This document shows, one piece after another, positions 19,977 to 60,578 of a DNA stretch of 64,000 nt (position 1 is its first letter; each line of letters begins with the position of its first letter). The stretch lies in IMG/VR virus record IMGVR_UViG_3300042891_001399. The stretch is one strand, 5' to 3'. Under the pieces are notes generated by a model. The model did no database searches and was not told the origin of the DNA. It saw only the letters and a program-made list of their open reading frames with translations. Made by a program: the position numbers and the translations under genes. This DNA comes from an uncultured virus (IMG/VR IMGVR_UViG_3300042891_001399) (taxonomy: Duplodnaviria > Heunggongvirae > Uroviricota > Caudoviricetes).

Positions 19977-21881
19977 TTAGTTAACTAAAACTGTTTTATT
20001 TACTGAAATTGCAGTACTTGATGTCATTGTTGTGTAGTAGTTACCTGGTGTAAATCCACTTAAACTTGCTCTGTAAGTGTAATTACCACTTGGCATATAT
20101 TGGTTTAAGATATTTGATACTACTCTACCATTCACATCAACAAATGATAAAGTAACTATACCATCAATTGGGTTGTTAAATTTAATTGTAACCTCACCAG
20201 TTGTAGGGTTAGGATAAACTAAAATTTCATTTTCTTTTAACACCACACCACCTTTAACCATTTTAACTTGGTAAAGACCGTTTGTAGGAATACAATTCAT
20301 ATCACCAGCGTCTTCTTTACCAACAAACTTTCTTGTTGTATAAAGAGGTGATTGTGCCCATTCATCTTGTGGTTTCTTAGCTAAGAATGTTAATGTGAAT
20401 ACTGTTTCACCATCAATGAATAAATTTTCACCGTTAGTTCTGTCATATCCACCCCATTCTATAACTGAGTCCATCGGGTTAACAAAAGACATCCAGTTCA
20501 TTGATTTCTCACTGTTTAGAACTTGTTTGAATTCTAATAAAGTGTTATCATATTTAAGACCTAATTGTAAAGCACCTACTTTATTTCCACCTGTAAAAAC
20601 TTTAACAGGAAGTTTTACTAAGTTGCCTTCATCTACTGTTAGATTAGGAACATTTACTTCAATTGTAGGAGCAACAAAATCATACTCAACTGCTTCATCA
20701 ATTAAGTGATTAGGAGCGTTAGTAGGGTTAATAATATCAATTGGCGTTAAACGAGCCATGTGATAACCTGTGTTGTTAGCATCACCAGGAACCAATACAT
20801 AAAACTGAACTGAGTCAGGTTGACCAGGTAAGATTGTAAATGTAAAGTTTGTATTACCAGTAACCGAACCAGTCATGTTTGTTGAAGGTGAACCAGTTAC
20901 AGTAGCATACTCAGAAGTTGTAAAGAATTTAACATCTTTAACTGAGTTAGGCCAAACTGAGAAACGACCAGCAATTCTACCAAATACACCATAAGCATCT
21001 GAGATAGTTAAGTTATTATCACCATTTACGTCAGCGTGATAGAAATCCCAAGCTGATGGTGTAAGAGCACCAATAGTCCATTGGTTAATTTTTTGGGCAT
21101 CCGCAACAGAGATTACATTACCCACAGCCATTGTATCACCTTTGATAGCTAATCTTACATCAAAGTAAGTAGTATCTAGGATTTCATTGAATGAGAATTT
21201 ACCAGCAGTGTCTGTTAAATAAGTATTAACAGTTGACCAAGTTGAACCTGTTTTAGGTTTTTTCTCTAAAGCTAATGTTAAGTTCTTAGCACCTGAACCA
21301 GTTACGTTTGTAAATGTACCGTGGTATTGTAAGTGTGGTAAGTAAAATATACCTCCATAGTTATGTAATGATAAAGCGATATCGTTACCTGGTTGCTCAG
21401 CAGCAACTTGAGAGTAAGGATAAGCACCCGACCAAGATAAGTTAGCAATTGAAGTTAATGCCTGGAAAGCCGTTGGAGCAACGTGCCCAAATGTAATTTC
21501 AAAAGTTTCACCATTTGCTAATGAGTAAGTACTACTTGAACCTGTATAAACAAGTGTGATAGTAACATAACCATTTGAATTGTTATCTACAGATTGTAGA
21601 TAAAGGTTTGTTGAAGAGCCAACTAAAGCAACAGATGCTGAAGCAAATGCGGTTTTGTCATAGAATACTCTAAACTGAACACCAGTTGTTTTACTAGTAG
21701 TTGTGTTTTGAAGAGTAAGTTTTGCCTTAGTGACATTTAATGTGTTTGTACCAACTGTGTAGTTAGTATCAATGATAGCCCAGATACCCGATGAAGGTGC
21801 TGGGGGACCGGTTTGTGAGAAAACCGGTAAAGCCAGAGTAATAAATAGCAAGGTGCTACCTATAAGTTTAAGTAATTTCAT
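19977..21881 (-). CDS. secreted protein with cohesin-like and dockerin-like domains and T9SS type A C-terminal sorting domain
   Basis: Signal peptide; GVQFRVFYD and ALQLGLKYD cohesin-like strands; DVNGDNNLTISD; VYPNPTTG...GNY CTD. Confidence 0.75.
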   Translation of the reverse strand: MKLLKLIGSTLLFITLALPVFSQTGPPAPSSGIWAIIDTNYTVGTNTLNVTKAKLTLQNTTTSKTTGVQFRVFYDKTAFASASVALVGSSTNLYLQSVDNNSNGYVTITLVYTGSSSTYSLANGETFEITFGHVAPTAFQALTSIANLSWSGAYPYSQVAAEQPGNDIALSLHNYGGIFYLPHLQYHGTFTNVTGSGAKNLTLALEKKPKTGSTWSTVNTYLTDTAGKFSFNEILDTTYFDVRLAIKGDTMAVGNVISVADAQKINQWTIGALTPSAWDFYHADVNGDNNLTISDAYGVFGRIAGRFSVWPNSVKDVKFFTTSEYATVTGSPSTNMTGSVTGNTNFTFTILPGQPDSVQFYVLVPGDANNTGYHMARLTPIDIINPTNAPNHLIDEAVEYDFVAPTIEVNVPNLTVDEGNLVKLPVKVFTGGNKVGALQLGLKYDNTLLEFKQVLNSEKSMNWMSFVNPMDSVIEWGGYDRTNGENLFIDGETVFTLTFLAKKPQDEWAQSPLYTTRKFVGKEDAGDMNCIPTNGLYQVKMVKGGVVLKENEILVYPNPTTGEVTIKFNNPIDGIVTLSFVDVNGRVVSNILNQYMPSGNYTYRASLSGFTPGNYYTTMTSSTAISVNKTVLVN

Positions 21882-22119
21882 AGTGGTTTATTCTTAATTT
21901 TCTTTATATATTAAGTTTTAAAACGTAAAAATAAAACATAAAATCTATATTTTCCTTTGTAATCAAGTGATACAATGTGTTTGAAAAAAATTCAAAAAAA
22001 ATTTGTAATTAAAAAAAATTATATTATCTTTGTATTCAATAAGGGTGTTGGTATAATACGCAAAACTTAATTATGATAAGCGCTTCCCATCACGAAGGAT
22101 AAAATCATAACCCTTTTTT

Positions 22120-22280
22120 GTTCTTTGAAAAAAATTCAAAAAAAGATTTGGTGAAATGAAAAAGTCTTCTTATCTTTGTGAAACAAATCAGAAATAAAAA
22201 TCTGAAAGTTCTTTGAAAAAAAATTAAAAAAAGATTTGGTGAAATGAAAAAGTCACCGTATCTTTGTGAAACAAAAATAA
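22120..22280 (+). promoter_or_regulatory. tandem duplicated Bacteroidota-type promoters with boxA-like elements
   Basis: Two ~70-nt near-identical copies gttctttgaaaaaaatt..gatTTTGgtgaaatgaaaaagtc..TATCTTTGtgaaacaaa. Confidence 0.75.
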
Positions 22281-22283
22281 AAT

Positions 22284-22356
22284 GGTCGGTTCGTCTACTG
22301 GATAGGACGGGTTTCTTTTCAGAAATCAAACAAAGGTTCGAATCCTTTACCGACTA
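22284..22356 (+). tRNA. tRNA-Glu-like with 8-nt anticodon loop (CUUUUCAG)
   Basis: Acceptor ggtcggt/accgact, D arm gtct..aggac, stem ggttt/aaatc, T arm aaagg-ttcgaat-ccttt. Confidence 0.85.
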
Positions 22357-22363
22357 CAAATAT

Positions 22364-22523
22364 GGCCCGTTCGTCTACTGGACTCGCAAGAGAAACAGAC
22401 GGTCAACAAAACGACTCCAAGGTGGGTTATGAGAAGGTGCCAATCCTCTCAAGTCGTGACCTGATGTTTAGGACGTCTAACTTTTCGGTTAGAAAACAGA
22501 GTGTTCGAATCCTCTACGGGCTA
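22364..22523 (+). tRNA. tRNA-Glu-like with 86-nt D-loop insertion and 8-nt anticodon loop (CUUUUCGG)
   Basis: Acceptor ggcccgt/acgggct, stem tctaa/ttaga, T loop ttcgaat; insert 22383-22468. Confidence 0.7.
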
Positions 22524-22531
22524 CTAAAAAT

Positions 22532-22603
<72 letters not shown>

Positions 22604-22674
22604 CAAAAAAGAAAAATGAAAGTTTTTCTAAACTTTTCCGAAACGTCGGATATAAAGTAAGTTCTTTGAAAAAA

Positions 22675-23535
22675 TTACATACGGAAACACTAACTTAGGT
22701 TAGTATGGAAGTAACGGCCGCTTATAGTCGTAAAATAAACCTTGAAAGGGGGATAAAGTGAACACAACTGCGAATTGTGTTTGCGTCTTGGGTAACCGAG
22801 GTCGAGTAAGCAAGCAGGATATCACTAAGCCTGAAGTACCGAGGGTAACTCCGTAGGGAAATGGATTGGTGACTGGGCAAGTGTAGATTGTTCAGTTGAG
22901 TTCGGAAGAGCAATAAGAATAACCTGTAGAAATTTTGCGAGAAGTGGTGACCAACCAGTTATCATCATCGCGAGTTTCAACTTGAGAGGTGTCTCAAAGT
23001 CGAAAGACAATTCATTGTACAGGTGGTGCTGTTGATGAACATCAATCACTCTACCAAGAGTGTAGATGAGCCGCAAGGTGAGTCGTGATGAAGATATCTT
23101 AAAGAGTTGTGATGGAGGCATCACACGGAGAAGTCCAGTATTCTTGAGGCCAAAAGCTTTGGGAGCTGAGAGGTGACCACTTCTTCGACACAATCTACAA
23201 GCACTAAAATTTACTTTTGAATGTAAAAACTTAAAACTAAATCGAAAGTGTTACCTAGTTACTGATAGAAAGGTGACTACTTAGTTATGGGATGTCCATA
23301 GCCACATAAGCTCGAAAGGCGGATGTGATTTCATCGAAAAACTTATAGGGCCTCGAAACCCGAATCAGCCTGCGAGGGTTGAGTAAGCAGAGTAAGTGGA
23401 GAGTATTCAGTAACTCAAGAAGTGGTTAGTCTAACTAACCGTCACTGTGACAATACCATTCAAAAGATGGTGGATAAAACTGGGAAACAATAATCCAGTC
23501 AAAGATGTCACACTGAACGTGTAATCTCAGCGTTT
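22675..23535 (+). ncRNA. large (~870 nt) structured ncRNA, GOLLD-like candidate
   Basis: GC-enriched, many tetraloop hairpins (gtc-gaaa-gac, cctt-gaaa-gggg, gcc-gcaa-ggt), directly downstream of tRNAs, ends at a terminator; family assigned by size and context only. Confidence 0.6.
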
Positions 23536-23536
23536 T

Positions 23537-23566
23537 AAGACTCAGCTTTTAGCTGGGTCTTTTTTA
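23537..23566 (+). terminator. intrinsic terminator of the RNA operon
   Basis: agactcagct-ttt-agctgggtct followed by a T tract. Confidence 0.8.
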
Positions 23567-23621
23567 TTTTAAATACTTTTTAATTTGGAAATATATCCTT
23601 ACATTTGTAGAAAATATAAAC

Positions 23622-37078: not shown

Positions 37079-40000
37079 TTATGCTATTTTGTGTATCCAG
37101 AAGTAAGTTAGATTTGTACTAGTTTTATTTGGTTGATGTGCAAGACTTGGTCCATAATCAGCTGTAACAGTCCAAGATGTGCCAGTTCCTTCAAGAAATA
37201 TACCTACACGAATATTATCACTATCAATATTATTTTTATATATACAGTCTATTGAAATAGATACCTCATAGTCAGTGGTCGCAGCTGAATGTGACATTAC
37301 GCTTTTAATAACTTGATTATTGGTCAAGTCAACTATATGTAATATTGCGCTATTTCCAACCCAACTATAAGTTGTTACAGTGGCGCCTATTTCAAAAACT
37401 TCATCTCTTAGTATATCAAAGCCTTTAAACTGAGTATTCCATCTTAAATTTGAATCATACTCTACACTATCAAACTCAATTTGCATTGAGCCATAATTTG
37501 GCCAATTTGTATTACTAAATGTAGCATTATTTGACAATATAACTTGACCATATATTAATGGTGTTCCGCCACCAGTTCCATTCACACCACTTGTTCCAGA
37601 TGATCCGTCAGTACCAGCTAAACCTGATGTACCTGATGTGCCTGATGTGCCTGAACTGCCTGATGTGCCTGAACTACCTGATGTGCCTGACGTTCCTGAT
37701 GAACCACTAGTTCCAGATGAACCGGATGTTCCAGATGAACCGGATGTTCCAGATGAACCATTTGAACCGGATGTTCCTGAAGTACCTGATGTTCCAGATG
37801 AACCGGATGTTCCAGATGAACCACTTATCCCTGAAGTTCCATTATGTACATAAGATATAACAATATTTTTGGGCATTGATGATGGTGGAGTAGTACCAGT
37901 AAAAGAAACGACACTTACACCGATGGCATAAACTGGGCTTAAATATGAAGCCGCTGATGTTACATTATAAATAGCATAACCAGTACCATCTGCATAATAC
38001 ATTTGAAATCTATCACCTACTGAAATAGATGTAAAGAATTGAGCTGCGTTACCTGTAGCACCTGGTGTTCCAGTATAATTAATTAAACTAGTTTCATTAA
38101 AACCCAAAGTGGTTAATGAAGAGAATGTTGTACCGAACGCACTGTATGCACCCCAACCACCAGAAACACCAGCAGTGTTATAATTTTGATAAATTAAAGA
38201 GTTTGGACCTGGAGCACCGTTAAGACCAGAGGTTCCAGAAGATCCACTTGTTCCAGATGAACCATTTGAACCGGATGTTCCTGAAGAACCGGATGTTCCA
38301 GATGAACCGGATGTTCCAGATGATCCTGATGATCCACTAATACCTGAAGTACCTGATGATCCAGATGAGCCTGATGTCCCACTTGATCCAGAACATATTC
38401 CATTATTTACTATTACTACACCAGGATCCATTGTTACAACAGTTCCATATACAGCACAAAGAGTAACTGTTTGATTTGCAAGTAAGAGATACATATTTAC
38501 AGTTCCTGGTAATGCACAATCTTCCCAATCAAAGGAACTTCCAGAACTGAATGAAGTGTTTGTTACAGTATAACTAAAACAGCTAAGTCCATCAATACCT
38601 GAAGTGCCTGATGATCCACTAACACCACTTGTTCCAGATGATCCATTTATACCTGAAGTACCAGATGATCCATTTATACCTGAAGTACCCGATGATCCAC
38701 TAATCCCCGATGTACCGGAAATACCATCCAAACCATTTAGACCTGATGTACCACTTGTACCTGAGGTGCCTGATGATCCACTAATACCACTTATACCTGA
38801 AGTACCAGATGACCCACTCGTTCCAGATGATCCTGTTGTACCATCTAAGCCACTAACACCTGATGATCCAGAAGTTCCACTTGATCCAGAAGACCCACTC
38901 GTTCCAGATGATCCAGAAGACCCACTTGTTCCTGATGATCCAGAAGACCCACTTGTTCCTGATGATCCACTAGCACCACTTGTTCCTGATGATCCACTAA
39001 CACCAGATGTACCTGAAGATCCGGCTAATCCAAATACCCAATCTGTCCCAGAATATGAAAATGATGTAGTATTTGTAGTCATTAAATCAGAAACTGTAAA
39101 TGTATAAGTATTTGTACTAGAAGCTGGTAAGTTACTAACTTTACTAACTAATGATACTACTTTCCAATATCTTTTCTGAGAACCATTAAGTGGGTTTATC
39201 GCAACTATGCTAGATCCAGAAGTTAATCTATCAAATATATCATCATAAGCAACAGAACCAGTATCATCAGTGCTATTAAAAATCAAAGTTGTTATACTTG
39301 AATTAATTGTACTACTACCAATATTACTGTTCCAACGACCAGCTGTATTTGTTGATGTACCCCAATTCCAAGATCCATATATACCACCTGGTGCGCCTAT
39401 ATCACCTGATGTACCACTTGTTCCAGAAGATCCACTAATTCCGCTTGTGCCGGAAGATCCACTTGTACCTGACGTACCAGATGATCCACTTATACCTGAC
39501 GTACCAGCAGAGCCTGATGTACCATTTACACCTGAAGTGCCTGATGATCCACTTGTACCAGATGTTCCAGCAGATCCTGAGGTTCCAGCAGATCCTGAAA
39601 TACCTGAAGTACCTGAAGATCCACTAACACCACTTGTACCTGAAACACCATCTAAACCATTCACACCAGAAGTGCCTGAAGTTCCATTTGATCCATTAAT
39701 ACCACTTGTACCTGAAGAGCCTGAAGTTCCACTTGTTCCTGATGATCCAGTTGAACCAGAAACACCTGATGTACCAGATGATCCACTTGTTCCTGAAGTT
39801 CCAGCCGAACCACCAATACTACCAGATGCGGTATAACCAATAACACCAGTTATTGAATCTCTAACTAAAAACTGATTAGATGATATATTAGATGGTGTGA
39901 CAAATAAGTGTAATTGACCATCATATGTAAGTTTCATTAAGTCTGTTAGTGTCCAAATAGGTCCAGTTGCATAGGATATATAAGTGAATAATAAATCATT

Positions 40001-40669
40001 TGTACCATTAGGATTATCACCAAATATAATACTAGGCGTATTATTATCAGAACCAGCCACTGTTCTGCTGCCTAACCCAACAAAATCAGTTTCCGAACCA
40101 TTAACTATAAATGTATCATAAAGTGATTGAGGAATTGTATTTCCCCAAGCACCACCACCATTTAAAATCCTAGAAAAAGAACCATCATTAGTTAAAATAT
40201 TACCATCATATGTTAATGTACTCCAAGCATATGCTTGATTTGTTGATGAACCAGTAGCTGTTAATATTCTATAATCTGCTGGATTTTGAACCGTATTAAA
40301 TCCTGTACCACTTGTTCCTGAAGATCCACTTGATCCTGAACTACCTGAAGTACCAGATGATCCATTAATACCACTTGTACCAGAAGTTCCACTTGATCCA
40401 GAAGTACCAGCACTACCAGCTGATCCACCTCCACTACTTTTAAGAACTAAATCGCCATCAGCAATACCGCCATAAAACCAATACTCTACAATTGGGTCGG
40501 TATTTACTATAATACCAATTGTTAGACCTTCATATCTATATGAAGCCAATAAGTATGTTGTAGCAGCACTAAGTGCAGCAGAAAGGTTAACACCTGTATA
40601 TGGACCATATTTAGCATCACCTGGTGCTGTTGTCTTTGCAAGTATATTATCACTTAAATTAATTGCCAT
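37079..40669 (-). CDS. large collagen-like (GTS/GSS)n repeat protein, probable tail fibre or virion appendage
   Basis: Five Gly-X-Y repeat blocks separating globular domains; 1196 aa. Confidence 0.75.
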   Translation of the reverse strand: MAINLSDNILAKTTAPGDAKYGPYTGVNLSAALSAATTYLLASYRYEGLTIGIIVNTDPIVEYWFYGGIADGDLVLKSSGGGSAGSAGTSGSSGTSGTSGINGSSGTSGSSGSSGSSGTSGTGFNTVQNPADYRILTATGSSTNQAYAWSTLTYDGNILTNDGSFSRILNGGGAWGNTIPQSLYDTFIVNGSETDFVGLGSRTVAGSDNNTPSIIFGDNPNGTNDLLFTYISYATGPIWTLTDLMKLTYDGQLHLFVTPSNISSNQFLVRDSITGVIGYTASGSIGGSAGTSGTSGSSGTSGVSGSTGSSGTSGTSGSSGTSGINGSNGTSGTSGVNGLDGVSGTSGVSGSSGTSGISGSAGTSGSAGTSGTSGSSGTSGVNGTSGSAGTSGISGSSGTSGTSGSSGTSGISGSSGTSGTSGDIGAPGGIYGSWNWGTSTNTAGRWNSNIGSSTINSSITTLIFNSTDDTGSVAYDDIFDRLTSGSSIVAINPLNGSQKRYWKVVSLVSKVSNLPASSTNTYTFTVSDLMTTNTTSFSYSGTDWVFGLAGSSGTSGVSGSSGTSGASGSSGTSGSSGSSGTSGSSGSSGTSGSSGSSGTSGSSGVSGLDGTTGSSGTSGSSGTSGISGISGSSGTSGTSGTSGLNGLDGISGTSGISGSSGTSGINGSSGTSGINGSSGTSGVSGSSGTSGIDGLSCFSYTVTNTSFSSGSSFDWEDCALPGTVNMYLLLANQTVTLCAVYGTVVTMDPGVVIVNNGICSGSSGTSGSSGSSGTSGISGSSGSSGTSGSSGTSGSSGTSGSNGSSGTSGSSGTSGLNGAPGPNSLIYQNYNTAGVSGGWGAYSAFGTTFSSLTTLGFNETSLINYTGTPGATGNAAQFFTSISVGDRFQMYYADGTGYAIYNVTSAASYLSPVYAIGVSVVSFTGTTPPSSMPKNIVISYVHNGTSGISGSSGTSGSSGTSGTSGTSGSNGSSGTSGSSGTSGSSGTSGSSGTSGTSGSSGTSGSSGTSGTSGTSGLAGTDGSSGTSGVNGTGGGTPLIYGQVILSNNATFSNTNWPNYGSMQIEFDSVEYDSNLRWNTQFKGFDILRDEVFEIGATVTTYSWVGNSAILHIVDLTNNQVIKSVMSHSAATTDYEVSISIDCIYKNNIDSDNIRVGIFLEGTGTSWTVTADYGPSLAHQPNKTSTNLTYFWIHKIA

Positions 40670-40689
40670 TGATGTATTTATTAATTTTA

Positions 40690-42840
40690 TTATGCTATAG
40701 TAGCAGTTCCTAATGTAGTAACTTTATTCGCTGGATATATTTTAAATGTGACAGTCCAGTAACCATCAGATGAAATAACAGATAATGGTGTTGTTGGTGC
40801 TGCAAATAAGTCAGTTACACCACCAATATTACCGTTATTAAGAGCATTTTCATACCAAGTTGATTTAGTAGGATAAACACTATAAACAGCAAACCAGGGC
40901 CACTCACCAGTTGCACTAAAGTTCATACTTAAACTACCAGCACCATTATTTACAACTTTTGTAAATCCTGTTCCTGATTGAATGATAGTAACAATATCAG
41001 AAGCCGACTTCTGTGTAGATGTTTTACCATAGAAGTAAGGATAGTATCCGGTAATAGTTTGACCATTTGAAGCAAAGTTAGTATCAGATGCTTGTGGTGA
41101 TAAAGTACTTCTAACAGCAGGAGATGCACTATGAGTAACGCCTTTATTATTTTTCTTAGCTAAACCAGCTGTATAATTACCAAGTCCTGAATAAGCAACT
41201 GTACTACTTCCACCTGAAGCAGGAGCAGGTACAACTAAACCAGAATCTGTTGTTGATATAGCATATGAGAAGTTAGGGTTATTAGGATCAACATATCCAA
41301 ATTGACTAGCAATTGCAGAAGCTGATGTTACAGTCATACTACTTGTTGCAGATACGGTAAGTAATGTTGATGAACCACCACCATTCACTGATTTTTGAAT
41401 TACTAATTGTGAGAAATAGTTAGCATCATTTTCAATACCTGTTAATGTAATAGCAGGTGATATAGTTTCACCTACTTCTTTAATACCAGTTATTGTAGAA
41501 GATAATCCTATTGTAGGTATAGTATATGTCGGAGTTACAGTAGGGAATAATAAGTCATCAAATAGTTGAACAAGGTTTAATCCAGATAAAGTTCCAGCTG
41601 TTGTTCCTGATGCAATACCACCAACTGTATTAGGCATTGCTAAAGATGGATCTAAAGCTGTATTATAAGTAGTATCTATTGTACTATTGGTAGAACCATA
41701 TGATATACTAATACCACTATTTGGATCAGTTATAACACCAGCGGGTGAACCACTAACACCTGATGTACCTGATGAGCCAGAAGTTCCTGATGAGCCAGAA
41801 GTTCCTGATGAACCAGTAGATCCATTAATACCCGAAGTACCGGAGATACCATCTAAACCATTAACACCTGAAGTCCCTGATGTGCCACTTGAACCTGAAG
41901 TTCCACTTGTACCGGAATATCCTGATATACCGCTTGTACCGGAAGATCCTGAAGTTCCACTTGTACCGGAAGATCCTGATGTACCGCTTGTACCGGAAGA
42001 TCCTGATGTACCGCTTGTACCGGAAGATCCTGAAGTTCCACTTGTGCCGGAAGATCCTGAAGTTCCACTTGTGCCGGAAGATCCTGAAGTTCCACTTGTG
42101 CCGGAAGATCCTGAAGTTCCACTTGTACCGGAAGATCCTGAAGTACCAGCAGAGCCACCACTACCACTGCTACTAAATGTATAATTATTTAATCTTTGAC
42201 CTACATATTGCCAAGCTATAACTCTTGGTCCACCAGTTGATGTATTTTGAATATAAGCTTGTTTTGATCCATCAGCTGTAAGCTCAAAAGTAGACTTGTT
42301 AAATACAAAACCTAATCCATTACCACTATCTTTTGGTGTAAAACCAACATCAAATCTAATTAAACCTGAAAAGTAATCTACATCATAAAAAGCACTACCA
42401 TAAGATATAGAAGTTGTGCCATCATTTCTAAACATTTGAAGTTCATATCCAAAAGAAGGAGCACCTGCGCTATTTGGAACATCGGATGGATTTATTAGTG
42501 ACTTTACCCAGTCAACTGAAGGAATAAAACCATCAGCCGCAGGTTGTGGAGTTCCTGTATCAATAAACCAAGTTTGATAATTTGTATTTGTTAGGGGATA
42601 TAAATAAGAAGGATTAGAAGAAGTGCCTATTTGTTTAACTATAGTACCATCAGCATATTGAGAAGCAGAAGCAGAAGTAGGCGCATAGGATATTGAATCC
42701 ATCCAAACTTCATTAGATCTGACGTTGTGCGCACTCTTATACTTTTCATTACCAACTAAAAAAGTTGACTCTGTTAATACTTTACCAAGTGAATGGTAAA
42801 AAGCTGCATTTATTTTGCTATTTTGAATACTATTTGGCAT
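40690..42840 (-). CDS. collagen-like repeat structural protein
   Basis: (GTSGSSGTS)n block; S/T-rich beta domains. Confidence 0.7.
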   Translation of the reverse strand: MPNSIQNSKINAAFYHSLGKVLTESTFLVGNEKYKSAHNVRSNEVWMDSISYAPTSASASQYADGTIVKQIGTSSNPSYLYPLTNTNYQTWFIDTGTPQPAADGFIPSVDWVKSLINPSDVPNSAGAPSFGYELQMFRNDGTTSISYGSAFYDVDYFSGLIRFDVGFTPKDSGNGLGFVFNKSTFELTADGSKQAYIQNTSTGGPRVIAWQYVGQRLNNYTFSSSGSGGSAGTSGSSGTSGTSGSSGTSGTSGSSGTSGTSGSSGTSGTSGSSGTSGTSGSSGTSGTSGSSGTSGTSGSSGTSGISGYSGTSGTSGSSGTSGTSGVNGLDGISGTSGINGSTGSSGTSGSSGTSGSSGTSGVSGSPAGVITDPNSGISISYGSTNSTIDTTYNTALDPSLAMPNTVGGIASGTTAGTLSGLNLVQLFDDLLFPTVTPTYTIPTIGLSSTITGIKEVGETISPAITLTGIENDANYFSQLVIQKSVNGGGSSTLLTVSATSSMTVTSASAIASQFGYVDPNNPNFSYAISTTDSGLVVPAPASGGSSTVAYSGLGNYTAGLAKKNNKGVTHSASPAVRSTLSPQASDTNFASNGQTITGYYPYFYGKTSTQKSASDIVTIIQSGTGFTKVVNNGAGSLSMNFSATGEWPWFAVYSVYPTKSTWYENALNNGNIGGVTDLFAAPTTPLSVISSDGYWTVTFKIYPANKVTTLGTATIA
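41745..42170 (-). repeat. 27-nt coding tandem repeat (GTSGSSGTS)n
   Basis: Near-perfect units ccggaagatcctgaagttccacttgt[a/g]. Confidence 0.9.
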
Positions 42841-42884
42841 ATATTGTATATATTTTATGTATCAACTCGTAATCTTAACTATTA

Positions 42885-43058
42885 TTAGTTTAGTTCATTA
42901 TTATCTGATATTGACTTTAATCTAATCGCAATTTTTTCAAATTGTTCTTTTGTAACATTTAGATTATGGTAAACATCACCTAACTGTATAGACAAAACAT
43001 ACATATCTTGTCCAGTTCTTGGATCTATAAAGACCTTATTAATTTTTACATCAAACAT
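42885..43058 (-). CDS. small hypothetical protein (57 aa)
   Basis: MFDVKINKVFIDPRTGQDMYVLSIQLGD...; fills the gap between structural genes. Confidence 0.55.
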   Translation of the reverse strand: MFDVKINKVFIDPRTGQDMYVLSIQLGDVYHNLNVTKEQFEKIAIRLKSISDNNELN

Positions 43059-43077
43059 TTATTTTATTTTATTTTTT

Positions 43078-45573
43078 TTAACTAAAGGTTATATTTGTTA
43101 TATTTAAATTTTTACCTGTTACAGTATTTTTATATCCTATAAATAACCATATCTTTTTAACAACTGGACTCAAAGTACCTTTTGACCACTGTATATCTTT
43201 AGAAGAGGTAGATTTATTAAGATTGTATGTAATAGGAGCTTGTCTTGTTCCATAAGTTGAAGGGTTACCAGATACAAATAAAAATTTATTTGGAGTTGTA
43301 TTAGTACTACTATCATCAAACCCAACAATGATAACTAAATCAGCTGTACCGGCTGTGCTATTAACACCATCATAATGTAAAACAGACTCACTAAAGTTAC
43401 TATTAAATACAAAAATACCATTAGCAAAAGATGTAGCATAAGAAGCATCTTTACCATAAGAGGTAACGTGCCATCTATAATCATTTAACGTCAATGAGGT
43501 TGTCGCTCCTGTATTGATATCAGTATAAACCGTAAATATCTTATTATCACCTGAAAGTGAAGAATAGTCAACAGAAGCCGTCCAGTTTGTTGTAGGATAA
43601 AAAGCTGTAAAATTACTCTGAGGATAAATAACTCTACCAAAAATGTATTGTAACTCATCAACATTTGTTGTTGATAAAGAAAGAGTTGAATCAAAAGCAG
43701 CAGTACCACTTGATATAACACCAGTAGTTGATAATCTACCTGTTTCACTATCCAATGGATTGTTAGCGTATGTAACACTACTTGGTGAATAAGTATCAAA
43801 CAACATAGCTCTACTAACTGATTGACTAAAACCAACAGTAGACCAATCGTAGATTGTAGATCTAACATAAGAAGTTGCACTTGAACTTATAGTATTATTC
43901 GTAGAAAATCCTGGTATATATGTAGAAGATGAATTTACAGTAGCTGTTTTAGAGAATGTTAAACCTGAATTATTCCAATCAATTGACCACCCAGTTATTA
44001 TACTACCAACACCACTTTTTGTTCCATCAGCATAACCATCTAAAGAACCAGAAACAGCCAAGTTTGTACAAGTAAAATCTATCTGTTTAGTTGTTGGAAA
44101 AGTTTGGTCATTTAATAAGTTTATGTTTGATGCAGTTAAAGCAAATGTTGAACTCATTGCGTAAAATTTAACACCGGAATATTGAACAGTTGTTGGTGTC
44201 AACTCATTAAAATCAGCTCCACCTGATATGTTAGCACTTGAAGAAGATCCATCACTATCATAAAGTATATCTGAACTAGTAAATGAGTATATACCAAATC
44301 CTGCATTACCCGCACCTTCTCCGTTATAATGTTTAACATTCCAACTAAATCTTCCACCATTAGGAAATAAAGTGCCAACAGCAATTGTACCAGAAACATT
44401 AGCCTTATATCTATCACTATCCGGCAAAAAACTATTAACAGTTATTACTAACCCATTTGATGATGTTGAACCCGCTCCATTTATGATGTAATTATCTATA
44501 GATGATAAAATAGAACCATCGTGATTATATAAAGTGAAGCTCATTGTAGTACCATTATTAAAGCAACCAAATTCAGATTCTGTAAATGCAGATAAGTTAC
44601 TTGATGAGTTTATAGCAGGTCTTGTTGTGCTAGCTGAGAAATTTGTAGCAGGTGACCAAGATCCTATTCCAAAATCACCAGAGTTACCTGGTGTAGTGTT
44701 ATAAGTACTATTTGTTGGTTGTGCTATATATCTTGATGTTCCACCACCTAAAGAAGGAGAAAAATAACCAACATAATTAGGAGCAGGTATCCAAACAGTA
44801 ACAGTAGGAGCAGGTCCGGTTACAGAAACACCAGTAGCTGTAGAACCCGGTGATGGAATAGTTACACTACCACCTCTAAATATCATAGTTGAAATTGAGC
44901 TAAATGTTTCTCCGGTGATGTAGTCTACAACATCTAAAGAAGTTCCTGAGCCAGAACCAGCGGGTATCCAAGAAAAATTACCATCTCCAGTATTTGATAA
45001 AACATAACCCGCTGTTGGACCACCACTCATTCCTGTATTTAGATGAGATGCTGTCAGACTTCCTAAATTAATAGTAGCAGAAGCAGATAAACCACCAGAT
45101 ATACTTTGTGTAGCAAAATTTATAGTATCAGTATTGTGAAATTCAACAGTAGAAGAAATACCAGATGTTCCTGAAGATCCTGACGTACCAGATGTTCCTG
45201 AAGTACCCGCAAATCCTGACGTACCAGATGTTCCTGAAGTACCCGCAAATCCTGACGTACCAGATGTTCCTGAAGATCCTGACGTACCAGATGTTCCTGA
45301 AGATCCTGACGTACCAGATGTTCCTGAAGATCCTGACGTACCAGATGTTCCTGAAGATCCTGACGTACCAGATGTTCCTGAAGTTCCACCTCCACCACCT
45401 CCACCACCAGCTTGATGGAATGTATTACCATCATCATCAACAACAACATATTTTATTAAACCGGTTGAACTTGTTATACCTGATATTGTTAAATTACTAA
45501 CTGATAAAGTTCCCGATATACTTTGAGTTGCTAACGAATTATTCGCATTATCTATGATGTATTTAATTGCCAT
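43078..45573 (-). CDS. collagen-like repeat structural protein
   Basis: N-terminal GTSGSS repeats; TAATATATA upstream. Confidence 0.7.
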   Translation of the reverse strand: MAIKYIIDNANNSLATQSISGTLSVSNLTISGITSSTGLIKYVVVDDDGNTFHQAGGGGGGGGTSGTSGTSGSSGTSGTSGSSGTSGTSGSSGTSGTSGSSGTSGTSGFAGTSGTSGTSGFAGTSGTSGTSGSSGTSGISSTVEFHNTDTINFATQSISGGLSASATINLGSLTASHLNTGMSGGPTAGYVLSNTGDGNFSWIPAGSGSGTSLDVVDYITGETFSSISTMIFRGGSVTIPSPGSTATGVSVTGPAPTVTVWIPAPNYVGYFSPSLGGGTSRYIAQPTNSTYNTTPGNSGDFGIGSWSPATNFSASTTRPAINSSSNLSAFTESEFGCFNNGTTMSFTLYNHDGSILSSIDNYIINGAGSTSSNGLVITVNSFLPDSDRYKANVSGTIAVGTLFPNGGRFSWNVKHYNGEGAGNAGFGIYSFTSSDILYDSDGSSSSANISGGADFNELTPTTVQYSGVKFYAMSSTFALTASNINLLNDQTFPTTKQIDFTCTNLAVSGSLDGYADGTKSGVGSIITGWSIDWNNSGLTFSKTATVNSSSTYIPGFSTNNTISSSATSYVRSTIYDWSTVGFSQSVSRAMLFDTYSPSSVTYANNPLDSETGRLSTTGVISSGTAAFDSTLSLSTTNVDELQYIFGRVIYPQSNFTAFYPTTNWTASVDYSSLSGDNKIFTVYTDINTGATTSLTLNDYRWHVTSYGKDASYATSFANGIFVFNSNFSESVLHYDGVNSTAGTADLVIIVGFDDSSTNTTPNKFLFVSGNPSTYGTRQAPITYNLNKSTSSKDIQWSKGTLSPVVKKIWLFIGYKNTVTGKNLNITNITFS
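45160..45385 (-). repeat. 27-nt coding tandem repeat
   Basis: gatcctgacgtaccagatgttcctgaa units. Confidence 0.9.
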
Positions 45574-59457: not shown

Positions 59458-60165
59458 ATGATTTATATACAATCCGACACCGATAGAAAATTACCACATC
59501 ACTTTGATTGTGCCTGTGGACTCTATGGTGCTTTAGACCATGGACAAGACATTCGTCTGACTACATTTGAAGAAGTTCAGTCTGGTAAGTTTGATAACTT
59601 AATTAAGTTAAATTTATTTATAGGCTCTGTTGAGTTTATGAAAGAAGTTTTTTCAAGAATTGGTAAAAACAATATTAGAGTTCCTGAAAACTCAAATCGT
59701 GATTTTAAATCAATGACATTAGGTGAGGCTAAGATATTATCTAAATCTAAAAGCATTTTCATTAAACCTTTTGATATTAAATTATTCACCGGTTTTGTAC
59801 TTGACCAAATGATTAACATGTCAATATCAAGTGTGTCGGATGATACAATGGTGATGGTATATGATGTTTTCTCAAGTCCAATTAGAAGTGAATGGCGTTG
59901 TTATATCGGAAGAGATAAAGTTGTTGACATTCGTAACTACTCTGGTGATATATTTACCACACCAAGTAAAGAGTATTTACAATCAGTTTTTGATTCAAAT
60001 AGGTCTAAATTTCCAACCGCTTATACAATTGATATTGGGATTTTAGAAAATGGAGATAATGTAGTAATTGAATATAATGATATGTGGGCTATTGGTAATT
60101 ATGGTATTGATAATTATGAATACTTTAGTTTGTTAAAATCAAGATATTTTGAAATAGTGAGATAA
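59458..60165 (+). CDS. ATP-grasp domain protein (DUF4343/R2K-like)
   Basis: FIKP..KLFTG, SEWRCY, YTIDIG, IEYND. Confidence 0.8.
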   Translation: MIYIQSDTDRKLPHHFDCACGLYGALDHGQDIRLTTFEEVQSGKFDNLIKLNLFIGSVEFMKEVFSRIGKNNIRVPENSNRDFKSMTLGEAKILSKSKSIFIKPFDIKLFTGFVLDQMINMSISSVSDDTMVMVYDVFSSPIRSEWRCYIGRDKVVDIRNYSGDIFTTPSKEYLQSVFDSNRSKFPTAYTIDIGILENGDNVVIEYNDMWAIGNYGIDNYEYFSLLKSRYFEIVR

Positions 60166-60578
60166 TGAATAATTACATTTTTACAGATATAGATGGTGTT
60201 CTAAACACAATTAATAGAAATCAGTGGAATAAAACCTCTATTGATTTGTATAATAAATTGTGCCATGAATTTAATTTAAAGCCTGTTATTTCTTCTACAT
60301 GGAGATTGAATCATACAAAAGAACAACTTCAGAAGATATTTACTGAACAGGGCGTAACTGTTACTATTTATGACTTCACAGATTCTTTTCCAGATGAAGG
60401 TAGAGGTCGTGAAATTGAAGATTGGATTTTTAATAACTCTTATGATAAGTTTATTATATTAGATGATAGTGTTAGAGATATAAATGCTTGGGGTTTGCCT
60501 AATGTGGTTAGATGTAGAGGATGGATAGGCTTTTCTGAAGAAGAGTATGACTTGGCGGTTTCTTTATTAAAAAAATGA
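60165..60578 (+). CDS. HAD domain protein (Swiss-Army-knife RNA-repair HAD-like)
   Basis: DIDGVLN, ISSTWR, RGREI, FIILDD. Confidence 0.8.
   Translation: MNNYIFTDIDGVLNTINRNQWNKTSIDLYNKLCHEFNLKPVISSTWRLNHTKEQLQKIFTEQGVTVTIYDFTDSFPDEGRGREIEDWIFNNSYDKFIILDDSVRDINAWGLPNVVRCRGWIGFSEEEYDLAVSLLKK

What the first reader, a model, noticed from the sequence alone, without database searches (positions are those of the whole stretch)
22284..22523. Two divergent tRNA-Glu-like genes both carry 8-nt anticodon loops (CU-UUUC-RG)
Seen: loop CUUUUCAG (22315-22) closed by ggttt/aaatc, and loop CUUUUCGG (22481-88) closed by tctaa/ttaga. The stems differ but the extra U is shared, which argues against a one-off error. 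Established: 8-nt anticodon loops produce +1 frameshift suppressors. Inference: quadruplet GAAA decoders for programmed frameshifts, anticodon-nuclease decoys or resistant variants, or non-decoding Glu carriers. The loop could instead fold as a 6-bp stem with a 6-nt loop.
Basis: partly seen in the sequence, partly recalled or inferred. Interest (0 to 1): 0.8.

Follow-up and report, generated by a model that had tools for sequence, protein, structure and literature searches.

The report
Phage glutamate-tRNA look-alikes beside GOLLD
A giant freshwater phage carries two glutamate-tRNA look-alikes whose codon-reading loop has one extra base in a conserved form; one also has a large extra domain at its elbow. 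They sit beside the cage-forming GOLLD RNA and belong to a widespread RNA family I found no description of, so they are selected genes, not errors, though their job is untested.

Summary
Both 8-nt loops are real at the stated coordinates. The extra U is not an assembly error: it recurs in many independent contigs.

- The second gene (22364-22523) carries about 86 extra nt in its D-loop and a bulged T stem.
- Both genes lie in a unit with an initiator-like tRNA-Met and a GOLLD RNA (272 bits).
- The window comes from a huge Bacteroidota-type phage.

The elements belong to a coherent tRNA-Glu-derived family. All four tRNA helices covary, and the loop stays N-U-W-UUC-R-N'. In the family rows N and N' pair (C-G, U-A, G-C); I sorted those rows partly on that pair.

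Related phages hold 2-5 copies alongside normal 7-nt-loop tRNA-Glu genes. One of them has no GOLLD. Two Planctomycetota genomes also carry a copy.

Efficient GAAA quadruplet reading is unlikely. GAA-A occurs in frame 287 times in 75 ORFs (observed/expected 0.93), and no +1 junction signal appears.

Best guess (about 0.4): non-decoding tRNA-Glu mimics cut out like tRNAs. Main rival (about 0.27): in-frame GAR readers with an altered loop, as in yeast mitochondrial tRNA-Thr1.

Earlier notes of this scan describe the same theme on other DNA. My literature searches found no description.

The parts
22208..22275 (+). Promoter-like module. It holds TTTG at 22235-22238 and TAtcTTTG at 22259-22266, 18 nt before t1. 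It is one of three repeated modules; the others are at 21976-22033 and 22120-22187.
   Evidence: Direct repeats are shown (68 nt, 93% identical to 22120-22187). The motif was read. The Bacteroidota -33/-7 consensus is recalled, not tested. The sigma-70 scan gave no more sites than shuffles.
22284..22357 (+). t1: a tRNA-Glu-type cloverleaf with no D-loop insert. Its acceptor stem is GGTCGGT/ACCGACT with a G1-U72 pair, followed by A73.
   Evidence: ARAGORN calls it tRNA-??? (tt). Rfam tRNA scores 42.9 bits. The minimum-energy fold is a cloverleaf with z -2.81. Near-identical copies with compensatory T-stem changes occur in metagenome loci L445, L488 and L500.
22315..22322 (+). t1 anticodon loop CUUUUCAG. 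It reads as a C-G closing pair around the 6-nt loop UUUUCA.
   Evidence: pair counts.
22364..22523 (+). t2: a tRNA-Glu-type body with acceptor GGCCCGT/ACGGGCT, an expanded D-loop and one bulged U in the T stem.
   Evidence: Read by comparison with t1. The fold keeps the acceptor, D, anticodon and T helices. Homologues are L021 (same), and L015, L016 and L031 with a 25-nt insert. ARAGORN and Rfam do not call it.
22383..22468 (+). D-loop insert of t2, placed after G18 G19 and before A21. It has two parts: hairpin 1 with a GNRA loop (CUC-GCAA-GAG, 22383-22392) and a long second hairpin.
   Evidence: fold; alignment. L031 has CCC-GUAA-GGG, so one stem pair differs on both sides (U-A to C-G).
22400..22464 (+). 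A 65-nt segment inside the second hairpin. It is absent from a variant in the population, which has TTTATC in its place.
   Evidence: A contig of DNA run X8 joins 22399 to 22465 with TTTATC between (tables 5 and 5c). This matches the short form seen in L015 and L031.
22481..22488 (+). t2 anticodon loop CUUUUCGG.
   Evidence: The DNA contig of run X8 covering 22349-22494 shows no difference.
22532..22604 (+). tRNA-Met(CAU), starting 8 nt after t2. It looks initiator-like: A11:U24, U1-A72, and two G-C pairs next to the loop.
   Evidence: ARAGORN; Rfam 62.9 bits. The initiator features were read from the sequence, and their meaning is recalled. The same Glu-like then tRNA-Met order occurs in 7 of 25 metagenome loci and in L003.
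22686..23125 (+). Probable 5' domain of the GOLLD RNA.
   Evidence: Contigs from RNA libraries of three studies cover 22686, 22706 or 22798 through 23457-23531 (table 8). Contigs cannot fix ends. This part aligns to L001 and L002.
23126..23533 (+). Conserved 3' domain of the GOLLD RNA.
   Evidence: Rfam RF02032, 272 bits against a cut-off of 150, model positions 1-416.
23537..23571 (+). Intrinsic-terminator-like hairpin followed by a T run, ending the unit.
   Evidence: 11 pairs, then TTTTATTTTA.

Best explanation
**What they are.** t1 and t2 are members of a selected family of tRNA-Glu-derived RNAs. The family is carried mainly by huge Bacteroidota-type phages.

**What is kept.** Everything a tRNA needs to fold and be handled as a tRNA is retained:
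- a 7-bp acceptor stem with G1-U72 and A73;
- U8, A14, G18 G19 and A21;
- the T loop;
- the Glu-type D arm and a 4-nt variable loop.

**What is changed.** The anticodon arm is remodelled into a 5-bp stem, an extra closing pair and a 6-nt loop U-W-UUC-R. Many copies add a hairpin domain at the elbow.

**How they are made (inferred).** They are transcribed with an initiator-like tRNA-Met and GOLLD. RNase P and RNase Z then cut them out, which also trims the neighbours' ends.

**What they do (inferred, about 0.4).** They do not serve as ordinary decoders. They act as tRNA-Glu mimics that present the Glu anticodon and Glu-type body to a tRNA-Glu-binding partner. Candidates are a host anticodon-directed nuclease or modification enzyme, GluRS, or GOLLD itself.

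**Shown versus inferred.** Family membership, conservation and covariation, and genomic context are shown. Transcription of the tRNA-like part, processing, charging and the partner are inferred.
For: **Copies in related phages.**
- Three related huge-phage records hold 10 copies, with 0 in the control.
- Each of those phages also has normal 7-nt-loop tRNA-Glu genes: W01 has 3 UUC and 1 CUC, W02 has 2 UUC and 1 CUC, W03 has 2 UUC. The odd copies are therefore extra.

**Selection on structure.**
- All helices covary: 96.5% of 682 cells are paired, 16 of 22 pairs change on both sides, and 0 of 500 shuffles reach this.
- The D stem and loop core are invariant in these rows. My search patterns fixed AGGAC and TTTTC or TWTTC, and the metagenome pattern also fixed TCGTCTA, so that invariance is partly forced.
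- The closing pair is kept through U-A and G-C changes.

**A family of its own.** Members are closer to one another (65-96%) than to normal tRNA-Glu (55-66%).

**Features hard to reconcile with ribosome use.**
- 8 of 21 distinct members carry D-loop inserts of 14-84 nt, and t2 carries about 86 nt.
- T-stem bulges and mismatches occur.

**Context.**
- In a GOLLD-first sample of 23 loci, a tRNA or tRNA-like gene starts about 10 nt after GOLLD's 3' end in 10 loci. It is the Glu-like element in 5.

**The same design on other bodies.** A closed 8-nt loop occurs on Tyr- and Thr-type bodies in the same operons.

**Against a quadruplet reading.** GAA-A is not avoided in frame.
Against: **No direct RNA evidence.** RNA-library contigs cover only the GOLLD part, which says nothing either way about small structured RNAs.

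**Features that fit a working tRNA equally well.**
- The anticodon UUC, R37, the acceptor identity (G1-U72, A73) and the Glu-type D arm are all conserved.
- Yeast mitochondrial tRNA-Thr1 has the same loop layout (UUUUAGGU) and reads triplets in frame (PMC3113583, passages).
- Some members sit in ordinary tRNA arrays (L025, L029, L030).
- Two Planctomycetota genomes keep one copy after clpP1-clpP2. That is an odd place for a phage decoy.

**No partner identified.** No nuclease or other binding factor was found.

**Ascertainment.** Most members were found with patterns that fixed parts of the loop or D arm. I also sorted metagenome hits by the closing pair, leaving out 21 of 46 tRNA-like hits with other or wobble closings.
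Confidence: 0.4

Rival explanations
1. The insert-free copies such as t1 are working tRNA-Glu. They read GAA and GAG in frame despite the 8-nt loop, with the extra base 5' of the anticodon. Their altered loop lets them escape a host factor that cleaves or disables ordinary tRNA-Glu.
For: - The loop layout N-[N U NNN R]-N' equals that of yeast mitochondrial tRNA-Thr1 (UUUUAGGU), a proven triplet reader (PMC3113583, passages).
- UUC, R37, the acceptor stem, G1-U72 and A73 are all conserved.
- Members occur inside tRNA arrays.
- The related phages encode GluRS/GlnRS-family enzymes: 4, 2 and 1 PF00749 matches.
- Phage tRNAs that evade tRNA-directed defences through loop changes are in print (PMC10264068: title and abstract in the listing; a term search).
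Against: - The same phages keep 2-4 normal tRNA-Glu genes.
- Many copies, t2 among them, carry 14-86 nt at the elbow and imperfect T stems.
- A Watson-Crick pair closing the loop is absent from normal Glu loops: 0 of 107.
- PMC10264068 mentions neither Glu nor loop insertions: 0 occurrences.
Confidence: 0.27
2. The elements are built-in accessory modules of the GOLLD and tRNA-Met operon. They act as tRNA-shaped cutting marks for RNase P and RNase Z that set the ends of GOLLD and tRNA-Met. Their loop or GNRA-tipped elbow hairpin may also dock on the GOLLD cage.
For: - A tRNA or tRNA-like gene abuts GOLLD's 3' end in 10 of 23 GOLLD-first loci.
- In L001, L002, L015, L018 and L019 the Glu-like element starts 8-14 nt after the GOLLD model's end.
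- tRNA-Met follows the element by 4-16 nt in 7 of 25 metagenome loci.
- Hairpin 1 of the insert keeps a GNRA loop through a compensatory stem change.
- GOLLD is known to lie near tRNAs and sometimes to hold one (10.1101/2024.12.08.627333, passages; PMC12990946, passages).
Against: - W03 has 5 copies and no GOLLD.
- Planctomycetota copies and copies in tRNA arrays have no GOLLD within the fetched 1.5 kb.
- A mere cutting mark would not need a conserved UUC loop or Glu identity features.
- In the window itself GOLLD ends at a terminator, not at a tRNA-like element.
Confidence: 0.15
3. They are +1 frameshifting tRNAs that read GAAA, or GAAU in the CUAUUCAG variant, as one Glu codon at programmed sites.
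For: - The loop can be written C32 U33 [W U U C] R37 G38, the classic layout of 8-nt-loop frameshift suppressors. This is established knowledge; only search listings were seen.
- Other 8-nt loops in these phages can be written the same way.
Against: - In 75 window ORFs (18,164 codons) GAA is followed by A 287 times against 308 expected, a ratio of 0.93. That is no stronger avoidance than for CAA-A or AAA-A.
- Only 2 of 11 '+1' gene junctions hold a GAA-A in the overlap. There are 16 '-1' junctions as a control.
- Normal tRNA-Glu genes would compete.
- The first and last loop bases covary as a pair.
Confidence: 0.07
4. They are decaying duplicates of tRNA-Glu genes, or assembly errors, with no function.
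For: - Some copies are degenerate, with weak anticodon or T stems: L003 1482-1556, L006, L052.
- Some 8-nt loops in long metagenome contigs (T..T, G..T, C..C closings) look like normal loops with one extra homopolymer letter.
Against: - Compensatory changes occur in every helix.
- The loop differs from normal loops by two linked changes: the extra U and G at the last position.
- The feature recurs in many independent assemblies.
Confidence: 0.03

Closest known systems
Canonical bacterial and phage tRNA-Glu(UUC) (Rfam RF00005)
   Same: - Cloverleaf with a 7-bp acceptor stem.
- Glu-type D arm (GUCU/GGAC, i.e. U11-A24 and U13-G22) and a 4-nt variable loop.
- G18 G19, T loop and A73.
- G1-U72, as in the related phages' own normal tRNA-Glu genes.
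   Different: - The anticodon loop has 8 nt, not 7, and its ends form a pair.
- Many copies hold a 14-86 nt hairpin domain in the D-loop.
- The T stem is often imperfect.
- The copies exist in addition to normal tRNA-Glu genes.
Yeast mitochondrial tRNA-Thr1(UAG) with the 8-nt loop UUUUAGGU (PMC3113583, passages read)
   Same: A natural tRNA with one extra U 5' of the anticodon. The layout is closing bases, then N-U-NNN-R.
   Different: - That tRNA is the only reader of its codon box and reassigns it.
- Its closing bases are U and U, not a Watson-Crick pair.
- It has no elbow insert and is not a phage gene.
tRNAs beside or inside GOLLD RNA (10.1101/2024.12.08.627333; PMC6582537; PMC12990946; passages read)
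   Same: - GOLLD lies in tRNA islands.
- One studied GOLLD lies downstream of a Met-tRNA.
- tRNAs or pseudo-tRNAs can be part of the GOLLD transcript.
   Different: - The described embedded tRNAs lie in the linker between the two GOLLD domains. Here the elements lie before the 5' domain, and in relatives directly after the 3' end.
- None of the passages I read mentions a Glu-type element, an 8-nt loop or a D-loop insert.
Laboratory +1 frameshift-suppressor tRNAs with 8-nt loops (sufD, sufJ, sufB2 type; engineered quadruplet decoders)
   Same: One extra nucleotide in the anticodon loop.
   Different: - Those are mutants or engineered tRNAs. This is a conserved natural family.
- No sign of use was found: no avoidance of GAA-A and no +1 junction signal.
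mascRNA of MALAT1 (tRNA-like 3' module cut by RNase P; recalled)
   Same: In relatives, a tRNA-shaped module sits directly after a long structured non-coding RNA, placed so that RNase P cutting would make that RNA's 3' end.
   Different: - mascRNA does not keep a defined anticodon, whereas this family keeps UUC and Glu identity features.
- mascRNA is eukaryotic.
- The Rfam mascRNA model does not match these elements. Its only weak hit was to an ordinary tRNA-Glu in L476.

Membership tests
tRNA (RF00005), Glu type | Four-helix cloverleaf kept by covariation | tested here: met
   31 insert-free members, 96.5% of cells paired, 16 of 22 pairs changed on both sides. t1 scores 42.9 bits.
tRNA (RF00005), Glu type | 7-nt anticodon loop with the anticodon at positions 34-36 | tested here: not met
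   The loops are CUUUUCAG and CUUUUCGG. ARAGORN gives no amino acid. In a loop-blind sample, 107 of 110 normal Glu-type phage tRNAs have 7-nt loops.
tRNA (RF00005), Glu type | Core tertiary nucleotides: U8, A14, G18 G19, A21, T54 T55 C56, A58 | tested here: met
   These are invariant columns in alignment A3. In t2 they flank the insert.
tRNA (RF00005), Glu type | GluRS identity set in the body: U11-A24, U13-G22, no residue 47. This is the E. coli set, recalled. | tested here: met
   D-stem pairs U-A and U-G occur in 31 of 31 members (the search patterns fixed GTCTA and AGGAC). The variable loop has 4 nt. Whether the relevant GluRS uses this set was not tested.
tRNA (RF00005), Glu type | Aminoacylation with Glu and use on the ribosome | not testable with these tools
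   No charging or tRNA-sequencing data are available. RNA-library contigs do not cover the elements, which carries no weight.
+1 frameshift-suppressor / quadruplet-decoding tRNA | 8-nt anticodon loop | tested here: met
   However, the loop ends covary as a pair.
+1 frameshift-suppressor / quadruplet-decoding tRNA | Genes that need a +1 shift at the cognate quadruplet | tested here: inconclusive
   Only 2 of 11 '+1' junctions in the window hold GAA-A in the overlap. Only this 64-kb window was examined, and no whole genome is held.
+1 frameshift-suppressor / quadruplet-decoding tRNA | Selection against the quadruplet in ordinary reading frames, expected if decoding is efficient | tested here: not met
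   GAA-A observed/expected is 0.93: 287 sites in 18,164 codons.
GOLLD-embedded tRNA (linker J13/15) | The tRNA lies between the 5' and 3' domains of GOLLD | tested here: not met
   t1 and t2 lie at 22284-22523, before the region covered by RNA-library contigs (from 22686) and before the Rfam match (23126-23533).
GOLLD-embedded tRNA (linker J13/15) | Co-location with GOLLD in phage DNA | tested here: met
   GOLLD scores 272 bits about 600 nt downstream. The same holds in L001, L002, L015, L016, L018, L019 and L021. It is not obligatory: W03 has 5 copies and no GOLLD.
Natural 8-nt-loop triplet reader (yeast mt tRNA-Thr1 type) | One extra base 5' of the anticodon | tested here: met
   C-[U U UUC R]-G compared with U-[U U UAG G]-U (PMC3113583). 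This rests on inspection only.
Natural 8-nt-loop triplet reader (yeast mt tRNA-Thr1 type) | Sole tRNA for its codons | tested here: not met
   The related phages and both Planctomycetota genomes also have 7-nt-loop tRNA-Glu(UUC) or a close paralogue. The window's own whole genome is not held.

The most novel reading that the evidence does not exclude
The GOLLD operon of these huge phages encodes the cage together with its own clients. These would be remodelled, still chargeable tRNA-Glu (and Tyr/Thr-type) look-alikes plus an initiator tRNA. The closed anticodon loops and GNRA-tipped elbow hairpins would be docking handles. GOLLD would then be a device that stores, shields or delivers tRNA-shaped RNAs during infection. 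If so, this family would give the first concrete cargo to test for the long-unexplained GOLLD nanocage.
Probability: 0.12. Interest if true: 0.9.

Novelty: new variant of a known kind. Interest (0 to 1): 0.62.

Why it matters
**What it would show about tRNA evolution.** If the family works as inferred, phages, and a few bacteria, maintain a class of tRNA-Glu derivatives under selection. The decoding loop is deliberately remodelled while the rest of the tRNA stays intact.

**Open questions it touches.**
- What are the many odd tRNA genes of huge phages for?
- What does the GOLLD RNA cage do? Its function has been unknown since 2009 despite solved structures.

**Testable predictions.**
- The elements should be cut by RNase P.
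- They should be charged, or not, by GluRS.
- They should read GAA, GAAA or nothing.
- They should bind, or fail to bind, GOLLD or a tRNA-directed defence nuclease.

**Practical use.** The family also provides a natural set of 8-nt-loop tRNAs for people who engineer codon size.

Tried and rejected
- **Whole genome.** The window's whole genome is not held. The phage's own tRNA set could not be read, so I used three related public records instead.
- **PHROGs.** A scan of 15 neighbouring proteins gave two families of unknown function and nothing useful.
- **RNA-library cover.** Contigs of runs X15, X18 and X19 give no usable cover of 22284-22523. X19 shows a trace (mean word depth 1.47) at 22292-22348. 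I draw no conclusion, because small structured RNAs are poorly captured and these are contigs.
- **Genome-collection scan.** Only 2 of 120 loci passed my filter for a paired anticodon stem and a Glu-type D arm; the rest look like chance hits.
- **Planctomycetota scan.** Only the already known genome matched: 1 of 401.
- **18-nt GOLLD pattern.** It found only the window's near-twin contig. A more degenerate pattern worked.
- **Sigma-70 promoter scan.** 4 sites against 4.0 in shuffles, which is uninformative for a Bacteroidota-type phage.
- **GOLLD pairing idea.** I considered that the loop UUUUC pairs with a conserved GAAAA in GOLLD. The GAAAA is invariant in all seven aligned GOLLDs. That includes the locus whose nearest element has UAUUC, so there is no covariation and the idea stays speculation.
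- **Group I or archaeal-type intron in t2.** I considered this and set it aside. Relatives keep the insert as two hairpins with a GNRA loop, and a shorter form is also kept. Splicing was not tested.
- **Earlier notes by place and by sequence.** Both look-ups gave nothing.
- **Supplements.** I read no supplementary files of the GOLLD papers. They may list the neighbouring tRNAs.
Full report
**1. The observation**

- CTTTTCAG lies at 22315-22322, between GGTTT and AAATC.
- CTTTTCGG lies at 22481-22488, between TCTAA and TTAGA.

The first element, t1 (22284-22357), is a clean cloverleaf.
- ARAGORN reports it as 'tRNA-???' with the two-letter anticodon 'tt', meaning it reads a 6-nt loop.
- Rfam's tRNA model gives it 42.9 bits against a cut-off of 29.
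- RNAfold returns a cloverleaf with z -2.81.

Neither program calls the second element, t2. Reading it against t1 shows why.
- It begins at 22364 with the acceptor strand GGCCCGT.
- It has the same D stem (GUCU/GGAC) and the same G18 G19.
- Between G19 and A21 it holds about 86 extra nucleotides (22383-22468).
- Its T stem has one bulged U.
- The fold keeps all four tRNA helices and makes two hairpins of the insert. The first is CUC-GCAA-GAG with a GNRA loop.

The pair is therefore one tRNA-shaped gene and one tRNA-shaped gene with a large elbow domain.

**2. Not an error**

- The motif AGGAC-N6-CTTTTCRG occurs exactly twice in the window.
- A contig of an independent DNA run (X8) covers 22349-22494 without a difference.
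- No insertion or deletion is listed at either T run. These are contigs, not raw reads.
- The loop differs from normal tRNA-Glu loops by two linked changes: the extra U and a G at the last loop position.
- I took a sample of Glu-type phage tRNAs with a pattern blind to the loop. It gave 111 distinct sequences, 110 of them with a paired anticodon stem. Of those, 107 have 7-nt loops (TTTTCAT 37, CTTTCAC 31, and others).

**3. Context**

- Eight bases after t2 lies a tRNA-Met(CAU), at 22532-22604.
- Further on lies a GOLLD RNA. Rfam RF02032 scores 272 bits at 23126-23533.
- The unit ends at a terminator-like hairpin at 23537-23571.
- Contigs from RNA libraries of three studies cover roughly 22686-23531, the whole GOLLD. 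They give no usable cover of t1 and t2, and I draw nothing from that.
- Upstream are three copies of a promoter-like module. The last holds TTTG and TAtcTTTG 18 nt before t1. This resembles the Bacteroidota promoter consensus, which I recall and did not test.
- The window's proteins include a T9SS sorting-domain protein, collagen-repeat proteins and metabolic genes.
- The best DNA matches are uncultured phage records of 634-642 kb.
- The runs that hold the stretch are lake and freshwater metagenomes.

**4. Relatives**

*Huge-phage records.* The three records hold 3, 2 and 5 copies of the motif, with 0 in the reversed control.
- In LR745206 one copy lies before tRNA-Met and GOLLD, and two lie directly after GOLLD.
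- In LR756502 one copy lies on each side of GOLLD.
- LR756504 has five copies at three sites and no GOLLD at all.

*Normal tRNA-Glu genes.* ARAGORN on the fetched tRNA clusters finds normal 7-nt-loop tRNA-Glu genes in each record: 3 UUC and 1 CUC; 2 UUC and 1 CUC; 2 UUC. The odd copies are therefore extra. The records also encode GluRS/GlnRS-family enzymes.

*IMG/VR.* The strict pattern found 18 loci, of which 2 are not tRNA-like. Several of these loci lie next to GOLLD. Others lie inside ordinary tRNA arrays.

*Cellular genomes.*
Both are Planctomycetota MAGs.
- ARAGORN calls the hit in each a tRNA-???.
- In both, the element follows clpP1-clpP2.
- One of them has a normal tRNA-Glu(UUC). The other has a full-length 70%-identical tRNA paralogue whose anticodon I did not read.
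- The two copies differ by a compensatory change in the anticodon stem.
- A sample of 401 Planctomycetota genomes held only the one already known.

- 46 have a full tRNA 3' half.
- Their closing bases are C..G 19, T..T 10, G..T 5, T..A 4, C..C 2, and A..T, T..G, T..C, G..C, A..C and C..A 1 each.
- The T..T, G..T, C..C and similar rows look like normal loops with one extra homopolymer letter. Several of these contigs show other homopolymer slips. I take them to be errors or one-off mutants, but that is a judgement.

**5. Structure**

*First alignment.* On 23 members, aligned from the D-stem 3' strand to the end, 92.9% of cells pair, and the five anticodon-stem pairs all change on both sides.

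*Second alignment.* I used 31 insert-free full-length members.
- *How the rows were chosen.* I took rows with complementary or U-G closings, including all five U-A, G-C or U-G closings among the 46, and added viral and genomic members. This left out 21 of the 46 tRNA-like metagenome hits: 15 with non-pairing closings, 5 with G..T and 1 with A..T.
- *Overall pairing.* 96.5% of 682 cells pair, and 16 of 22 pairs change on both sides.
- *Fixed features.* The D stem never varies. G1-U72 holds in 27 of 31.
- *The extra pair.* It is C-G 23, U-A 5, G-C 2 and U-G 1.

That selection makes the 100% figure for the extra pair circular. The independent evidence for the extra pair comes from switches inside close lineages:
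- M484 (U-A) against M504 (G-C), with otherwise near-identical arms;
- the Planctomycetota-type lineage with C-G, U-A and U-G.

RNAfold goes further, to a 7-bp stem and a UUUC tetraloop. The second loop base can be A, as in CUAUUCAG (L015, L006, L052).

*Inserts.* Inserts of 14-84 nt in the D-loop occur in 8 of 21 distinct members. In the t2 lineage:
- the first hairpin keeps a GNRA loop through a compensatory stem change;
- a population variant lacks 65 nt of the second hairpin.

*A family of its own.* Members resemble one another (65-96%) more than normal tRNA-Glu (55-66%). Part of this follows from how they were found.

**6. What it is not likely to be**

An efficient GAAA reader would damage the phage's own proteins.
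- In 75 ORFs (18,164 codons) GAA is followed by A 287 times against 308 expected, a ratio of 0.93. That is no different from CAA-A (0.94) or AAA-A (0.97).
- Of 11 gene junctions where a +1 shift would run into a long open frame, 2 hold a GAA-A in the overlap. There are 16 such junctions for -1.

This covers one 64-kb window only and does not exclude rare or weak events.

**7. What it most likely is**

The features that let a tRNA fold, be cut by RNase P and Z, receive CCA and be recognised as tRNA-Glu are all kept by selection. The decoding loop is remodelled in one fixed way, and an elbow domain is often added. Three further points bear on function.
- The same loop design (closing pair, then U-W-NNN-R) occurs on long-arm Tyr- and Thr-type bodies upstream of tRNA-Met and GOLLD in relatives. 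This points to a general device rather than a Glu-codon matter.
- In a GOLLD-first sample of 23 loci, a tRNA or tRNA-like gene starts about 10 nt after GOLLD's end in 10 loci: Phe, Ser, Leu, or the Glu-like element in 5. Part of the role may therefore be end formation.
- tRNA-Met(CAU) follows the element within 4-16 nt in 7 of 25 metagenome loci, and no other tRNA type does.

I commit to non-decoding tRNA-Glu mimics that are cut out like tRNAs and offered to a tRNA-Glu-binding partner, at about 0.4. The strongest rival, at about 0.27, is a working in-frame reader. Yeast mitochondrial tRNA-Thr1 has the loop UUUUAGGU, the same layout, and reads triplets (PMC3113583, passages). A role as an accessory of GOLLD and tRNA-Met gets about 0.15, quadruplet reading about 0.07, and junk about 0.03.

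**8. Comparison with what is known**

- The papers I read in passages say that GOLLD lies near tRNA islands, that one studied GOLLD lies downstream of a Met-tRNA, and that tRNAs can sit in its linker (10.1101/2024.12.08.627333; PMC6582537; PMC12990946). None of those passages mentions Glu-type elements, 8-nt loops or D-loop inserts.
- A review of non-canonical tRNAs names only the yeast mitochondrial case for 8-nt loops (PMC7609411, passages).
- The paper on phage tRNAs that evade defences holds no occurrence of 'Glu' or 'insertion' (PMC10264068).
- My five literature searches brought up no description of this family. Subscription papers and supplements were not seen.

**9. Earlier notes of this scan**

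Notes on other DNA describe the same theme.
- Five tRNA-Glu scaffolds with elbow hairpins in a giant Bacteroidota-type phage, said to recur in about 50 contigs (e1-5857470; part of it later fell).
- A Glu-type look-alike with a 78-nt D-loop insert and a 6-nt loop in a Streptomyces phage (e1-6057903).
- A tRNA-Phe mimic with an elbow hairpin and a closed loop next to GOLLD (e1-6052874).

These were leads. The recurrence, the inserts and the GOLLD neighbourhood I checked myself here.

**10. Verdict**

The quadruplet reading is unlikely. The elements are members of a real, conserved and, as far as I could find, undescribed variant of tRNA-like RNA tied to huge phages and often to GOLLD. Interest 0.62.

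Noticed in passing
L001 1403-1490; L015 65-150; L018 216-302: Long-variable-arm (Tyr- and Thr-type) tRNA-like genes lie upstream of tRNA-Met and GOLLD. They show the same closed 8-nt loop design: G-UUGUAA-C, G-UAGUAA-C and G-UUGGUG-C.
   Followed up: partly
L032 1294-1559; L034 556-645 and 899-985; L035 1262-1343 (record LR745206): tRNAs of 82-90 nt with long variable arms carry Lys (UUU, CUU), Asn (GUU), Gln (UUG) and Arg (UCU) anticodons. These amino acids normally use short-arm tRNAs.
   Followed up: no
L035 665-738; L048 346-421: Two further 8-nt-loop tRNAs occur in the related huge phages. One has GUAG in the loop. The other, AUUCUAAC, contains CUA, the amber-reading triplet.
   Followed up: no
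Metagenome loci such as L529, L482, L448, L526, L476: At least 49 distinct contigs hold a tRNA-Glu 5' half (acceptor strand, D arm, start of the anticodon arm) fused to two covarying hairpins and CATCCT, not to a tRNA 3' half. The hairpins are UCA[G/C]CC-AAA-GG[C/G]UGA and CCACCC..GGGUGG. There is no Rfam match. In L476 a normal tRNA-Glu follows.
   Followed up: partly
L001 2954-3036; also L015, L016, L031, L423, L431: A conserved structured spacer of about 80 nt (AAGUUUUCGUAGUGGUUAAC... with three hairpins) lies between the Glu-like element after GOLLD and the next one. In L423 and L431 the first element is reduced to an acceptor-stem mini-helix.
   Followed up: no
window 21976-22275 and 22661-22679: Three copies of a promoter-like module stand in tandem, with short hairpin-forming transcripts between them. 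A fourth copy of its first 19 nt lies just before the start of GOLLD cover.
   Followed up: partly
window 59458-60578: Adjacent genes encode an R2K-clade ATP-grasp protein and a 'Swiss Army Knife RNA repair' HAD domain protein. This pairing has been proposed for RNA repair (recalled).
   Followed up: no
window 37079-45573 (- strand): Three large neighbouring proteins (1196, 716 and 831 aa) carry collagen triple-helix repeats.
   Followed up: no
window 19977-21881 (- strand): A 634-aa protein carries a cohesin domain and a T9SS C-terminal sorting domain. This points to a Bacteroidota host.
   Followed up: no
LR745206.1 23461-24189: A 290-aa open frame of the GluRS catalytic family, too short to hold an anticodon-binding domain. 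Its size matches GluQRS (recalled). It lies beside two full-length family members elsewhere in the record.
   Followed up: no
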